Shown: piece by piece, positions 33,001-36,000 of the stretch
Layout of the letters: every line of letters begins with the position of its first letter
Numbering within the stretch: position 1 is the first letter of the stretch
Origin: Escherichia coli
GTDB taxonomy: Bacteria > Pseudomonadota > Gammaproteobacteria > Enterobacterales > Enterobacteriaceae
NCBI RefSeq assembly: GCF_001677475.2
Contig: NZ_CP015229.1
Direction: 5' to 3' (one strand)
Length of the DNA stretch: 64,000 bases
Program-made: the position numbers

Positions 33001-36000
33001 AATGGCAATAAACAGCAACGTCAGTGGCAATAACGTTGAAAATCGCCCCTGCCGCGGTTTTACCCGACTTAATGAAATGGCCAGCAGCGCCATCAACAAT
33101 GCTGTCAGGCCACGGCTTTGTCGCCATTGCAGTTCGGCATGATCGGCTGGAAAGACGGAGCGCGCCAGCTCCGTGACCGATTTTGCTTTGCGTTTGACGT
33201 TAGGGCTTTGATCCAGCGGATTCAGATGTAATTGCAGATTACGGTAGATCTGTTCGTTGTCGTCACGCCCCTGATGATCGAGAAGGTAGGCGGTCCCGTT
33301 ATGCAACATAACGGTCGGTTTCTCGGGTGATGGGTCAACCACATCAACCGAACGGGCGCGGAAAATGCGGGTTCGATTGGCAGTAGAAGTATAAATCAGC
33401 GCGTCAGTCAGGCGATTATTATCCTGATCAACCGTCTGCGAAAGGATCATTCGTCCGTTATCGTTAGTGTTAAATTTCTTTGCCCGCAACTGGCGAACAT
33501 CCAACTCCGACTGCGACTGTTGCTCCAGTTGATAAATCTGCGCATAAGCCCACGGACGACCATACATCGACAGAAGGGTGACAAAAATACTTAGCGGTAT
33601 CGCCAAATTAAGAACGGCTTTGTACAAGCGTCCCGGACTGCCCCCCGCCGCAGAGATAGCGGTAATTTCCGAGTCGGTATACATCTGCCCTAGCGTCACG
33701 CCAACTGACACATACAGTCCAACAGGTAACAACATCTCCAGTGCAATCAGCACTTTGTAGAAAACGATATCCAGCACAACATCAAGTGCTAATGTCCCAT
33801 TTGCCGCTTCGGTCAGATAACGCTGTGCGGAGTAGCTGGCGAAAATAAAGATCAGAAAACCGACGATAATCAGCACCAGACGGCGCGTACCACGCATGAT
33901 GTAGTGTTCAACCAGCTTCATCTCACTAACGCCCTCAATCCTTTGAGTTTTTTATTCATTGATCAGCTTCTGCGCCAGCGCAATGACATGATCTACCTCT
34001 TCCGGCGTCAGGCTGCCGTCCTTTGCCCACTGAATTTGCCCGGCTTTATTCAGCACCAGAATGGTTGAACTCTGCTCCGGCAAGCGCCAGGCAATGCGTC
34101 CCAGTCCATTGCCGTCAATAACGAATTGCGCCCACGGATAGCGGCGTTTATTTTTTTCGATTTTGCCAACGACAAAATAGCCGGTACCAAAAATGGCATC
34201 ATCGGTGTTCACAATGGTGGTGGGCTGAAAACGATCCTGCGGAAAGTTTGCCGCTTCAACCGCTTTAATTAACAGTGAGTTCTTTTTCTTCGCCGACTTA
34301 CGCCCAGCGATATACTGAATAATGCGAACTTTTCCCGCCAGCTGTGTGCTGTTCCACTTTTGGTAGTGAATTTCGTCGTCGCTATTCAGAAGCAGCTCGC
34401 CGCCTTCCTGGATATAAACAGGGGTAACCGTTTTGCCAGTGACGAAATTGTGTGCCTGCACACCCGGGGCTAAGAGCATGATAATCAGCGCAATAATCAA
34501 ACGAGATGACATCATTGCTCCGGTTATAGCGGAAAACGCGAAATCAGCAGCTCTAAGCGCTGGCGAATATCGCTATCCAGCGCCACCGGTGCATCATACG
34601 ACTGGCGGTTTTCCATATCATCCGCCACCATGTCGTCGTGTTTATCCCCCATCAGGCCATTAATGGCGGCGAGGAAACGGGAAATCTGTAACGCCTCTTT
34701 ATTTTCAGGATCAAGCGATCTTAGGGTGTCGTAATAAGAAACCTGCTGGCTGATGATTTTTCGCACATCATGAAATTCCCTGCCGGTTAGTCGCGGTTTG
34801 GCGATTATCTCTTTCAGGGTATGCATTTGCTTTTGCCGATAGGCAATAAAACCGCTTACGATTTCTAACTGGCTATGGCGTAATGAATAGTTCACCAACG
34901 ACCAGACCGGAGAGCTTAAATAAATTCGTAACAGGTTGCCGTAATACGACACAATATTTTTCTTACCGTTACGAAATCCGTCCTGAAAACGTCCCAGAAA
35001 AACGGTCGTTTTGCCGAATAAAAATCTGGCCTGATGCTTTTTTAAATACAGCCGTTGTGCAAAACGCAGATGCTTGTAGCGCGCTCGCATGTATTTAAAT
35101 TGTTTGCGCTCATCAGCAGTCAGCTCATCGCCTTTGGTCTGTTTGCGAATTAAACGCAGTAACTCCTGGCGATTAACGCCATTGAGCCAGAATTGCAGGC
35201 ATAACGCGTAATTATCATGGATGATTTCGGTGGTACAACTTAGTGCAATAGTCGGCGGCAAACTAACCTGTGCATCAACGACATCATCTTCTTCAATCGC
35301 AACAAATAGACGCTCGCTCGCCTCAAGCGGGAAATATTTTCTCATCATCAGGATTTCTCTCCGGCTGCGTTATAAAGCAAGGAATGGCGCTGAAAAAATG
35401 CCTTTAAGGTTGGAATTAGCGAGAGCGCTACATCCAGACATTGCCCAGCGAAGTAAGCAAATGCAGCCCCCAGCACGCCAAACAGATGACAGAACATGAA
35501 CAGCAATACGATGTAGCCGATTGAGGCGATGGTTTGCGCCACGAGAAAAGCGCGCTGTTTTCCCGCCATCAATAGCAATGACTCCTGCGGGAAGCCCAGC
35601 ATCGAAATCACAATTGCGCCCAGCATCACCTGAATCAGGTCATACGCTTCGAGATACTTAACGCCAAACACCAGCGAAATGAGCGGCTTGCCGACGATCA
35701 ACACCGCGAGCGCCACCAGAATACCGATTCCGCCCGCCAGTAAACCGGACTTCACACCTAACAACCAAGGTCTGGTGGTGCGCGGATCTAAACGCATCAC
35801 CTCTGGGTAAAAACTTTTACCCAGCAAACCCGCTGGCGTTCCGGCGGCGTCGAAGAATGTCATGGCGATTTTAAATAACCCGGCGGCAGCGGGTCCTAAC
35901 ACGATCCCCACCAACACTGTGCTGCACGAATTACGCGCCGACCAGATGGAATGGGCAATGTTGGTTGACCAGACAAAACTCCACGAGCCTTTGATGTGTC

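What the first reader, a model, noticed from the sequence alone, without database searches (positions are those of the whole stretch)
33952..35348. Two uncharacterised proteins embedded in the export operon
A signal-peptide-bearing ~19 kDa protein (possibly YtfJ-family, thioredoxin-like) and a 274-aa basic cytoplasmic protein sit between yghQ and the permease pair with minimal spacing; the 274-aa gene start overlaps the yghQ stop by 1 nt. Their placement suggests roles as a periplasmic carrier or chaperone and an accessory factor for the locus product.
Basis: inference. Interest (0 to 1): 0.5.

Follow-up and report, generated by a model that had tools for sequence, protein, structure and literature searches.

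The report
Two accessory genes, E. coli sphingolipid locus
The two unnamed genes are real, conserved parts of the recently recognised sphingolipid-making and -exporting gene cluster of E. coli and its relatives: one is a cytoplasmic CHAD-fold (phosphate-chain-binding type) protein coupled to the lipid flippase gene, the other a secreted, cysteine-free thioredoxin-fold protein that is found together with the Lpt-like lipid extractor, so both are testable candidates for the still unknown steps of bacterial sphingolipid export.

Summary
On the minus strand, a 187-aa ORF (33952-34515) and a 274-aa ORF (34524-35348) sit between yghQ and an lptF/lptG-like pair. Spacing is 8 and 30 nt, and the yghQ stop and orf274 start overlap by 1 nt (TGATG).

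The "export operon" is the transport arm of the Enterobacterales sphingolipid locus (yghO/bcerS, aasR, cerR, acpR, spt; LptF2/LptG2). This locus was described in 2022-2026 papers, but neither gene is discussed in the passages I read or in any paper my searches returned.

The 187-aa protein is a YtfJ-family paralogue, 54% identical to K-12 YtfJ. It has a signal peptide and a TlpA/DsbE-like thioredoxin fold but no cysteine, so it is not a redox enzyme. In 59 genome loci it occurs with LptF2/G2. It is absent where an RND pump replaces them.

The functions are inferred: a cytoplasmic binder of an anionic head group for the flippase, and a periplasmic helper of the Lpt-like route.

The parts
33952..34515 (-). 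ytfJ2: 187-aa YtfJ-family protein, secreted, with a thioredoxin (TlpA/DsbE-like) fold and no cysteine
34453..34515 (-). Signal peptide of ytfJ2 (residues 1-21, predicted cleavage VQA|HNF)
   Evidence: Read from the sequence: an n-region with Arg, a hydrophobic core LIIALIIMLLA and an A-x-A-type site. The His after the site is invariant in the family. Not tested experimentally.
34524..35348 (-). orf274 (UniProt name Ybl138): 274-aa basic cytoplasmic protein, a divergent CHAD-fold (two four-helix bundles)
35346..35350 (-). TGATG junction: yghQ stop and orf274 start share one base (likely translational coupling)
   Evidence: Sequence. The same pair overlaps by 4 nt (ATGA) in Serratia, Sodalis, Sphingomonas and a metagenome contig.
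35348..36697 (-). yghQ: 449-aa MOP/Wzx-type (Polysacc_synt) flippase, the counterpart of Caulobacter CC_1166
   Evidence: Weak MOP flippase hit. Orthologues carry PF01943. CC_1166 has the same InterPro family and is proposed as the sphingolipid flippase (PMC11324152). Truncated by IS5 in K-12.
36742..37500 (-). yghR: thymidylate-kinase-like P-loop protein
   Evidence: TIGR00041 2e-7, below cut-off. Co-occurs with the yghQ and CHAD-like genes in 50 of 59 loci.
37530..38243 (-). yghS: thymidylate-kinase-like P-loop protein, probable first gene of the operon
   Evidence: TIGR00041 1.6e-5. A promoter-like site lies upstream at 38321-38293 (consensus match only).
38417..39109 (+). yghT: third thymidylate-kinase-like paralogue, divergently transcribed
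   Evidence: Present in 50 of 59 loci, including Sphingomonas.
32851..33921 (-). lptF2: LptF paralogue of the sphingolipid locus
   Evidence: TIGR04407 316 bits (cut-off 230). Literature: bioRxiv 10.64898/2026.04.12.717747.
31775..32854 (-). lptG2: LptG paralogue, with a 4-nt overlap with lptF2
   Evidence: TIGR04408 304 bits (cut-off 240). Start ATG at 32854 as in the RefSeq annotation.
31743..31777 (.). Hairpin with a 16-pair stem in the gap between convergent spt and lptG2; likely a bidirectional terminator marking the operon end
   Evidence: pattern scan only.
27626..31740 (+). aasR-cerR-acpR-spt: the convergent sphingolipid biosynthesis operon
   Evidence: Spt equivalog NF047599 600 bits (cut-off 500); fatty acyl-AMP ligase 872 bits. 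RefSeq annotation. Biochemistry of the BL21 orthologues in PMC9386255.
26139..27281 (-). yghO: bacterial ceramide synthase (N-acyltransferase) candidate
   Evidence: Annotated yghO. Assigned as the aca/bcerS orthologue ECD_02850 in PMC9386255.

Best explanation
Both genes are accessory components of the transport arm of the Enterobacterales sphingolipid locus. The arm appears to be one operon, yghS-yghR-yghQ-orf274-ytfJ2-lptF2-lptG2. It is convergent with aasR-cerR-acpR-spt and lies next to yghO/bcerS.

**orf274.** It is a cytoplasmic, basic, divergent CHAD-fold protein made together with the MOP flippase YghQ, with stop and start codons overlapping. It most likely uses its conserved Lys/Arg/His stripes to bind a phosphate-rich anionic group. 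The candidates are the phosphorylated head group of the sphingolipid, or a pyrophosphate-linked lipid carrier, produced or used by the thymidylate-kinase-like YghR/S/T proteins. It would present this group to YghQ, or gate YghQ, at the inner face of the inner membrane.

**ytfJ2.** It is a Sec-exported, redox-dead thioredoxin-fold paralogue of YtfJ. An invariant Arg/Lys loop (AGRxSAK) sits where thioredoxins carry CxxC. It most likely works on the periplasmic side with LptF2/LptG2 (plus LptB), binding or handing on the anionic lipid after flipping.

**Shown:** gene reality, family and fold assignments, locus identity, conserved linkage, and absence of cysteines. **Inferred:** co-transcription, ligands, partners and the order of steps.
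For: **Locus identity.** The Spt equivalog is above cut-off. AasR, CerR, AcpR, YghO, LptF2 and LptG2 are all present. BL21 orthologues were characterised biochemically (PMC9386255). LptF2/G2 were implicated in sphingolipid export, with the periplasmic and outer-membrane steps explicitly unknown (bioRxiv 10.64898/2026.04.12.717747).

**Operon.** Spacing is 1-nt overlap, 8 nt, 30 nt and 4-nt overlap. Internal promoter and terminator motifs are not in clear excess (promoters 7 against 8.2 expected; terminator-like sites 14 against 9.2 +/- 3.6). The one strong hairpin is at the operon end.

**orf274 linkage.** yghQ lies directly upstream on the same strand in 52 of 61 copies; 3 more are at contig edges and 2 follow a tandem copy. 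This holds through locus rearrangements and in Xanthomonadales, Sphingomonas and a Rhodobacteraceae MAG. YghR/S/T-like genes are in 50-52 of the 59 loci, and at least one in 54. Other contexts and fusions also point to phospho-lipid head-group chemistry: ArnT-like and ArnC-like genes with a Tmk-like kinase; PMT_2, DAGK_cat and NTP_transf_3; and APH/choline-kinase fusions.

**ytfJ2.** Family, fold and absence of Cys are shown. It is present in 47 of 59 loci. It stays in the locus even when moved to the spt operon on the other strand. The five Xanthomonadales loci, which carry an MdtABC-type RND pump instead of LptF2/G2, also lack ytfJ2.
Against: - There is no experimental datum on either protein and no transcript map.
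- The window protein itself does not hit Pfam CHAD. hhalign of the family against the single YgiF CHAD sequence found nothing, so homology rests on fold plus weak transitive hits.
- The native lipid product of the E. coli locus is unknown, so the anionic head group is a postulate.
- Caulobacter and Sphingomonas have LptF2/G2 with no YtfJ reported in the papers read. Carnimonas locus L065 has LptFG-like genes without ytfJ2. YtfJ2 therefore cannot be a universal partner.
- The link between YtfJ2 and LptF2G2 may reflect a single ancestral acquisition in Enterobacterales rather than function.
- K-12 keeps a YtfJ paralogue without any sphingolipid locus, so the family's basic role is not sphingolipid-specific.
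- Some CHAD-like relatives are solitary or secreted.
Confidence: 0.45

Rival explanations
1. orf274 is a genuine polyphosphate-binding CHAD protein. It recruits polyP as phosphoryl donor or energy source for the YghR/S/T kinase-like proteins, by analogy with CHAD proteins encoded beside PPK2-type kinases. It has no direct role at the flippase.
For: It has the CHAD fold and conserved basic stripes. Known CHAD domains bind polyP specifically and are encoded with polyP kinases or phosphatases. YghR/S/T-like genes are in 50-52 of the 59 loci, and they share the thymidylate-kinase P-loop fold class to which PPK2 also belongs (my background knowledge).
Against: YghR/S/T gave no PPK2 model hit at E<=0.01 in NCBIfam. 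No PPK1, PPX or TTM gene lies within 10 kb in 67 loci. The tightest and most conserved linkage is the stop/start overlap with the flippase gene, not with the kinases. Distant family members carry signal peptides or lipoboxes, which is an odd location for a cytoplasmic polyP reader.
Confidence: 0.2
2. The two genes are passengers. ytfJ2 is a redundant duplicate of housekeeping ytfJ, and orf274 is a general cytoplasmic protein. Both are carried in the locus by descent, with no role in sphingolipid synthesis or export.
For: Both families also occur outside sphingolipid loci: K-12 ytfJ, solitary CHAD-like copies in Pluralibacter (L025, L035) and an unrelated context in L006. All Enterobacterales loci may derive from one acquisition.
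Against: Both genes are retained at 50-98% identity in 47-52 of 59 loci. This holds through at least four different gene orders, including relocation of ytfJ2 to the other strand behind spt. The yghQ and CHAD-like pair is conserved between Gammaproteobacteria and Alphaproteobacteria at 33-35% identity, with the codon overlap kept. ytfJ2 is absent in exactly the loci where LptF2/G2 are replaced by an RND pump.
Confidence: 0.12
3. ytfJ2 is a periplasmic thiol-disulfide oxidoreductase or peroxiredoxin. One possible role is supplying electrons to the periplasmic ceramide reductase CerR.
Against: The window protein has no cysteine at all. In 18 family sequences no Cys column is conserved, and the CxxC position is an invariant AGRxSAK. 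Thiol chemistry is therefore impossible.
Confidence: 0.02
4. orf274 is a TPR-repeat scaffold, as one automatic annotation says ([quoted passage not shown]).
For: The name is given by one source. The protein is all helical.
Confidence: 0.02

Closest known systems
CHAD domain proteins (PF05235; Ricinus RcCHAD 6qv5, Chlorobium CtCHAD 3e0s, Streptomyces PptA 6rn5, E. coli YgiF 5a61)
   Different: The window protein is below Pfam detection. Its first-repeat stripe begins with Lys instead of the usual His. It is never next to TTM, PPK1 or PPX genes. Instead it is translationally coupled to a MOP flippase and accompanied by Tmk-like kinases in sphingolipid loci. The ligand is unknown.
YtfJ / HI0045 family (PF09695, TIGR01626); E. 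coli K-12 YtfJ (b4216)
   Same: 54% identity over the full length. Both have a signal peptide and the invariant motifs H(+1 of the mature protein), IAGRxSAKxxN and TIVNTDD. The function of the family is unknown.
   Different: This is a second copy, encoded inside the sphingolipid locus next to lptF2/lptG2 rather than at the ytfI-ytfK position. It is missing from K-12 because of an IS5-associated deletion.
TlpA/DsbE(CcmG)/ResA periplasmic thioredoxin-like oxidoreductases
   Different: There is no CxxC and no cysteine at all, so it is not an oxidoreductase.
Caulobacter sphingolipid transport set LptF2/LptG2/LptC2 plus the candidate flippase CC_1166 (bioRxiv 10.64898/2026.04.12.717747; PMC11324152)
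   Same: LptF/LptG paralogues and a Polysacc_synt-family flippase are encoded with spt, acpR, aasR, cerR and bcerS.
   Different: The Enterobacterales locus has no LptC2, which the authors say is restricted to Caulobacter. No cpgABC genes were identified in the locus annotation, though homology was not specifically tested. It has instead ytfJ2, the CHAD-like gene and three Tmk-like genes. None of these is mentioned in the passages of those papers that I read.
Wzx-type MOP flippases for undecaprenyl-pyrophosphate-linked sugars
   Same: YghQ belongs to the same Pfam family (PF01943). The substrates of that family carry a pyrophosphate, a plausible ligand type for a CHAD-like partner.
   Different: No dedicated soluble CHAD-like partner is described for Wzx flippases as far as I know (my background knowledge, not tested).

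Membership tests
YtfJ_HI0045 family (PF09695 / TIGR01626) | Full-length match to the family model above the curated cut-off | tested here: met
   TIGR01626 213.2 bits against a cut-off of 151.1, covering residues 2-185. PF09695 3.1e-59.
YtfJ_HI0045 family (PF09695 / TIGR01626) | N-terminal signal peptide (periplasmic protein) | tested here: met
   Read from the sequence only: MMSSRLIIALIIMLLAPGVQA|HNF, conserved in 18 aligned members. Localisation was not tested experimentally.
Thioredoxin-like thiol:disulfide oxidoreductases (TlpA/DsbE/ResA) and peroxiredoxins | Thioredoxin fold | tested here: met
Thioredoxin-like thiol:disulfide oxidoreductases (TlpA/DsbE/ResA) and peroxiredoxins | Catalytic CxxC or peroxidatic Cys at the N-terminus of helix 1 | tested here: not met
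   No Cys in the protein. The position is occupied by an invariant A70-G71-R72-x-S74-A75-K76.
CHAD domain (PF05235) | Match to the Pfam CHAD model | tested here: inconclusive
   The window protein has no hit at E<=10. Among relatives found with its family profile, 9 of 48 and 19 of 40 hit CHAD at E<=0.1, and 4 at E<=0.001 (best 2.5e-5). No other family recurs. hhalign against the single YgiF CHAD sequence was negative.
CHAD domain (PF05235) | Two four-helix bundles related by pseudo-twofold symmetry | tested here: met
CHAD domain (PF05235) | Conserved basic residues forming the phosphate-binding surface or central cavity | tested here: inconclusive
   The basic stripes K85/R88/K92/R95 and H193/R196/K197, plus H105 and H237, are kept in 45-48 of 48 sequences.
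CHAD domain (PF05235) | Binds inorganic polyphosphate | not testable with these tools
   Needs a binding assay such as GCI or ITC, as in bioRxiv 10.1101/567040.
CHAD domain (PF05235) | Fusion to, or operon with, polyP-metabolising enzymes (TTM/CYTH, PPK, PPX) | tested here: not met
   tblastn with E. coli Ppk, Ppx and YgiF against 67 loci (1.29 Mb) gave no hit at E<=1e-3. PPK2 was not tested by tblastn, and YghR/S/T gave no PPK2 model hit.
Proteobacterial sphingolipid locus (spt, acpR, aasR, cerR, bcerS, plus LptF2/LptG2) | Serine palmitoyltransferase with its dedicated ACP, acyl-ACP synthetase, reductase and N-acyltransferase, all clustered | tested here: met
   Spt NF047599 599.7 bits (cut-off 500); fatty acyl-AMP ligase 871.7 bits (cut-off 600); an epimerase-family reductase; an ACP; and yghO. 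The same genes were studied in BL21 (PMC9386255).
Proteobacterial sphingolipid locus (spt, acpR, aasR, cerR, bcerS, plus LptF2/LptG2) | A second LptF/LptG pair encoded in the locus | tested here: met
   TIGR04407 316 bits (cut-off 230) and TIGR04408 304 bits (cut-off 240). The E. coli UTI89 locus is shown in Fig. 2B of bioRxiv 10.64898/2026.04.12.717747.
Proteobacterial sphingolipid locus (spt, acpR, aasR, cerR, bcerS, plus LptF2/LptG2) | The organism makes a sphingolipid whose export depends on these genes | not testable with these tools
   The native product of the E. coli locus is not reported in the papers found.
Lpt bridge proteins (LptC/LptA), as a possible role for ytfJ2 | Beta-jellyroll fold | tested here: not met
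   The model is an alpha/beta thioredoxin fold. ytfJ2 may work with LptF2/G2, but it is not an LptC/LptA homologue.

The most novel reading that the evidence does not exclude
The CHAD-like protein would be the first CHAD-fold protein whose job is not polyphosphate handling. It would act as a cytoplasmic reader of a phosphate-rich lipid head group that feeds or gates a MOP flippase. The three thymidylate-kinase-like YghR/S/T proteins would build that anionic head group on ceramide or on a lipid carrier. YtfJ2 would be the first identified periplasmic factor of the LptB-F2-G2 sphingolipid route, which would also give the widespread YtfJ family a function as a periplasmic binder of anionic lipid head groups.
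Probability: 0.2. Interest if true: 0.7.

Novelty: new variant of a known kind. Interest (0 to 1): 0.5.

Why it matters
[quoted passage not shown] The 2026 Caulobacter study names LptF2/LptG2/LptB. It states that the flipping, periplasmic and outer-membrane steps are unknown and that "yet unidentified proteins" may be needed.

The locus studied here is present in about three quarters of complete E. coli genomes, including BL21 and uropathogenic strains. It was lost from K-12 through an IS5-associated deletion, which is probably why its accessory genes were never studied.

This work supplies two concrete, genetically tractable candidates with clear predictions. One is tied to the flippase and kinase-like module and conserved as far as Sphingomonas. 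The other is tied to the Lpt-like extractor.

It also points to a non-canonical use of the CHAD fold and gives a first functional context for the orphan YtfJ family.

Tried and rejected
- **Sequence searches of orf274.** Searches against Pfam, NCBIfam and PDB, as a single sequence and as a 22-sequence profile, gave nothing.
- **hhalign against YgiF.** The 48-sequence family compared with the single YgiF CHAD domain gave probability 0.25%, i.e. no signal. I had no diverse CHAD alignment to make a proper profile-profile test.
- **The search for related loci with A2.** The closer alignment A1 worked.
- **Literature.** Searches for yghQ, YtfJ, Ybl138, yghO plus sphingolipid, and CHAD plus sphingolipid plus flippase found no functional work on either protein.
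- **The 'TPR repeat' label.** Rejected.
- **ytfJ2 as redox partner of periplasmic CerR.** Rejected because it has no cysteine.
- **ytfJ2 as an LptC2 substitute by homology.** Rejected because the fold is different.
- **YghR/S/T as PPK2.** Not supported. They give only weak dTMP-kinase hits.
- **Flippase fusions.** No flippase and CHAD-like fusion proteins were found among the 150 best representatives.
- **Solitary paralogue context.** The context of the solitary Pluralibacter copy (L025) was uninformative.
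Full report
**1. Observation**

The ORF table and the raw sequence show two minus-strand ORFs at the stated coordinates: 33952-34515 (187 aa) and 34524-35348 (274 aa).

- On the minus strand the junction with yghQ reads TGATGATG. The yghQ stop and the first ATG of orf274 therefore share one base.
- The gap between orf274 and the 187-aa ORF is 8 nt.
- The gap between the 187-aa ORF and the next gene is 30 nt.
- The two permease genes overlap by 4 nt.
- Shine-Dalgarno-like GGAG motifs precede both ORFs.

The 187-aa product starts with a canonical signal peptide, with predicted cleavage at VQA|HNF. The mature protein is 18.6 kDa, pI 9.3, and contains no cysteine. The 274-aa product has pI 9.44 and no hydrophobic segment.

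The stretch occurs at 90-99% identity in 4172 of 5426 complete E. coli genomes. RefSeq annotates it as 'YtfJ family protein' and 'hypothetical protein'.

**2. What the locus is**

The RefSeq annotation of a 98% identical genome and my own family scans give this gene order:

- yghO on one side;
- aasR (fatty acyl-AMP ligase), an epimerase-family reductase, an acyl carrier protein and spt, reading forward. The serine palmitoyltransferase equivalog scores 600 bits against a cut-off of 500;
- lptG-like, lptF-like, ytfJ-like, orf274, yghQ, yghR and yghS, reading in the opposite direction and converging on spt;
- yghT, transcribed divergently from yghS;
- pitB.

This is the sphingolipid locus of E. 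coli B and pathogenic strains. Its AcpR, AasR and Spt have been characterised, and yghO and the reductase have been proposed as ceramide synthase and reductase (PMC9386255).

A 2026 preprint shows that the LptF/LptG paralogues of the Caulobacter locus are needed when anionic sphingolipid is made and that they bind LptB. It depicts the E. coli UTI89 locus. It also states that the flipping, periplasmic and outer-membrane steps are unknown (bioRxiv 10.64898/2026.04.12.717747). A Polysacc_synt-family protein, CC_1166, is the proposed flippase there (PMC11324152). YghQ orthologues carry the same Pfam family.

In K-12 an IS5 element replaces everything from aasR to the 3' end of yghQ. This explains why the two genes have no y-names. 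Neither is discussed in the passages I read or in any paper my searches returned.

**3. The 187-aa protein (ytfJ2)**

- It is a full-length YtfJ-family member (TIGR01626, 213 bits against 151; PF09695, 3e-59).
- It is 54% identical to K-12 YtfJ, which lies elsewhere on the chromosome.
- The window protein has no cysteine, and no Cys column is conserved across 18 aligned sequences. The loop and helix start that carry CxxC in those enzymes is an invariant A-G-R-x-S-A-K-x-x-N. Thiol redox chemistry is excluded. An Arg/Lys pair at a helix N-terminus is a classic anion site; this last point is inference.

**4. The 274-aa protein (orf274)**

Nothing was found by sequence in Pfam, NCBIfam or PDB. The word-indexed search listed only Enterobacterales 'hypothetical proteins' among the best 120 hits (one record is titled Martelella alba). 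A profile search of 1.8 billion representatives found a modest family of 289 clusters.

The evidence for a CHAD fold is as follows.

- A model built on 22 homologues is confident (pLDDT 92.6, pTM 0.89) and all helical.
- Foldseek against AFDB finds relatives with TM of about 0.9 that UniProt names 'CHAD domain-containing protein'. They come from Sphingomonas, Zymomonas, Acetobacter, Gluconobacter and Komagataeibacter. Sphingomonas, Zymomonas mobilis and Gluconobacter oxydans are listed as spt-carrying in PMC9386255.
- Scanning family members one by one, Pfam CHAD is the only recurrent hit: 9 of 48, and 19 of 40 of the more distant ones, at E<=0.1; 4 at E<=0.001.

Across 48 sequences at 17-56% identity, these positions are invariant or nearly so: R88, G119, D123, H193, R196, K85, K92, R95, H105, K197, N230, G234, H237 and D238. 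They form two repeats, each with a basic helix stripe (KxxRxxxKxxR; HxxRK) followed by a G..D motif. Characterised CHAD domains bind polyP through an H-x2-R-x3-R stripe and further Lys/Arg (bioRxiv 10.1101/567040).

I conclude that orf274 is a divergent branch of the CHAD superfamily. Membership of Pfam CHAD in the strict sense is not met for the window protein itself. A comparison with the single YgiF sequence was negative.

**5. Linkage across genomes**

A scan of one genome per species returned 59 loci. I mapped the thirteen window proteins onto them with tblastn.

*The CHAD-like gene.*
- Of its 61 copies, 52 lie directly downstream of yghQ on the same strand. Three are at contig edges, 2 follow a tandem duplicate and 4 are elsewhere.
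- The pair persists through at least four different arrangements of the locus.
- It persists in Xanthomonadales, in Sphingomonas and in a Rhodobacteraceae MAG at 33-35% identity. In the Sphingomonas natans locus and a metagenome contig of unknown taxon the operon is simply two or three Tmk-like genes, then yghQ, then the CHAD-like gene, with the 4-nt codon overlap kept.
- YghR/S/T-like genes are present in 50-52 of 59 loci.

*ytfJ2.*
- It is present in 47 loci and lies directly downstream of the CHAD-like gene in 46 of the 61 gene copies.
- In Sodalis-type loci it has moved to the other strand behind spt but remains in the locus.
- The five Xanthomonadales loci lack both ytfJ2 and LptF2/G2. 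In their place they carry an MdtABC-type RND tripartite pump between the CHAD-like gene and yghO.

The CHAD-like gene therefore goes with the flippase and kinase-like module, and ytfJ2 goes with the Lpt-like extractor. There are three caveats:
- the Enterobacterales loci may represent a single acquisition;
- Carnimonas L065 has LptFG-like genes without ytfJ2;
- the papers I read report no YtfJ for Caulobacter or Sphingomonas, although they have LptF2/G2.

**6. Other contexts of the CHAD-like family**

- No Ppk, Ppx or YgiF homologue lies within 10 kb in 67 loci.
- A second Carnimonas copy sits behind a Tmk-like kinase, an ArnT-like and an ArnC-like glycosyltransferase, and before a PmrAB-like two-component system.
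- One metagenomic locus adds AsmA, PMT_2, DAGK_cat (the ceramide-kinase family) and a nucleotidyltransferase.
- Two long relatives fuse a signal peptide, an APH/choline-kinase domain and two CHAD-like repeats.
- Others are secreted or are lipoproteins.

The common theme is chemistry on phosphorylated, membrane-bound head groups rather than cytoplasmic polyP granules.

**7. Mechanism proposed (inference)**

1. Ceramide, or oxidised ceramide, is made in the cytoplasm by Spt, AcpR, AasR and YghO.
2. YghR/S/T are related to kinases that phosphorylate phosphomonoesters. They would build or use a phosphate-rich group.
3. The CHAD-like protein is made stoichiometrically with YghQ through coupled translation. 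It binds that anionic group through its basic stripes and presents it to the flippase.
4. After flipping, LptB plus LptF2/G2 extract the lipid.
5. YtfJ2 assists on the periplasmic side, perhaps by binding the same anionic head group.

The operon structure is inferred from three things: the spacing; internal promoter or terminator motifs not in clear excess (7 against 8.2 expected; 14 against 9.2 +/- 3.6); and a hairpin with a 16-pair stem in the 34-nt gap between the convergent spt and lptG2.

**8. Rivals**

- orf274 as a true polyP reader serving the kinases remains possible (confidence 0.2).
- A passenger role is unlikely given the conservation (0.12).
- A redox role for ytfJ2 is excluded by the lack of cysteine.
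- The TPR label for orf274 is unsupported.

**9. Verdict**

Both proteins belong to known superfamilies, so nothing here is categorically new. However, the CHAD-like branch coupled to a flippase, and the YtfJ paralogue tied to LptF2/G2, are undescribed in the literature I searched. They bear directly on an explicitly open question about bacterial sphingolipid export. Interest is moderate (0.5). The functional model is a hypothesis that needs genetics, lipidomics and binding assays.

Noticed in passing
L049, L052, L055, L056, L058 (about 10800-19700 in each): The sphingolipid loci of Luteibacter, Rhodanobacter and Dyella carry an MdtABC-type RND tripartite efflux system (adaptor, two RND permeases and a NodT-type outer-membrane factor) between the CHAD-like gene and yghO/bcerS. 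They lack LptF2/G2 and ytfJ2. This looks like an alternative export route for the lipid.
   Followed up: partly
window 36742-39109 (yghR, yghS, yghT); L062-L064, L067, L068: Two or three paralogous thymidylate-kinase-like P-loop genes accompany the yghQ and CHAD-like pair in 50-52 of 59 loci, including Sphingomonas. All score far below the dTMP-kinase cut-off, so RefSeq's 'dTMP kinase' name for YghS/YghT is probably wrong. Their substrate is unknown.
   Followed up: partly
L069 (K-12 MG1655 3130146-3132408), compared with window 27626-36697: In K-12 an IS5 element (insH9) sits where aasR, cerR, acpR, spt, lptG2, lptF2, ytfJ2, orf274 and the 3' end of yghQ are in this window. K-12 yghQ is a 355-aa remnant, and K-12 yghO is annotated as a 'putative DNA-binding transcriptional regulator'.
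   Followed up: yes
L059 5939-13136 (Carnimonas nigrificans): A second CHAD-like copy lies in an apparent operon with a Tmk-like kinase, an ArnT-like and an ArnC-like glycosyltransferase. A PmrA/PmrB-like two-component system follows. The arrangement resembles lipid A phosphate-modification loci.
   Followed up: partly
P0234, P0237 (976 and 983 aa); P0186, P0266, P0218: Distant relatives of orf274 carry signal peptides or a lipobox. Two of them fuse an APH/choline-kinase-type phosphotransferase domain to two tandem CHAD-like repeats, so secreted kinase and CHAD-like proteins exist.
   Followed up: partly
window 31743-31777: A hairpin with a 16-pair stem (9 G-C pairs) fills the 34-nt gap between the convergent stops of spt and lptG2. 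It is probably a bidirectional terminator.
   Followed up: no
window 34450-34452 (His22 of ytfJ2); alignment A3: The residue predicted to become the N-terminus of the mature YtfJ-family protein is an invariant histidine (…A|H-N/Q-F). An N-terminal His can be a metal ligand in other periplasmic proteins, but no second invariant His is present.
   Followed up: no
L049 10001-11757 and L055 9152-10816 (Luteibacter); L025, L035 (Pluralibacter): The CHAD-like gene is tandemly duplicated in two Luteibacter species. Pluralibacter has an extra solitary copy in an unrelated neighbourhood (BCCT transporter, amidohydrolase, MFS transporter, LysR regulator).
   Followed up: partly
window 27626-27688: The longest ORF for aasR starts at a TTG (583 aa). 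RefSeq annotates a 562-aa product in the 98% identical genome, so the true start is probably about 63 nt downstream.
   Followed up: no
L068 5252-15131: In a metagenome contig the Tmk-like, yghQ and CHAD-like module is preceded by an AsmA-family gene (AsmA-like proteins are implicated in lipid transport to the outer membrane; my background knowledge). It is followed by PMT_2, DAGK_cat (ceramide-kinase family) and NTP_transf_3 genes.
   Followed up: no
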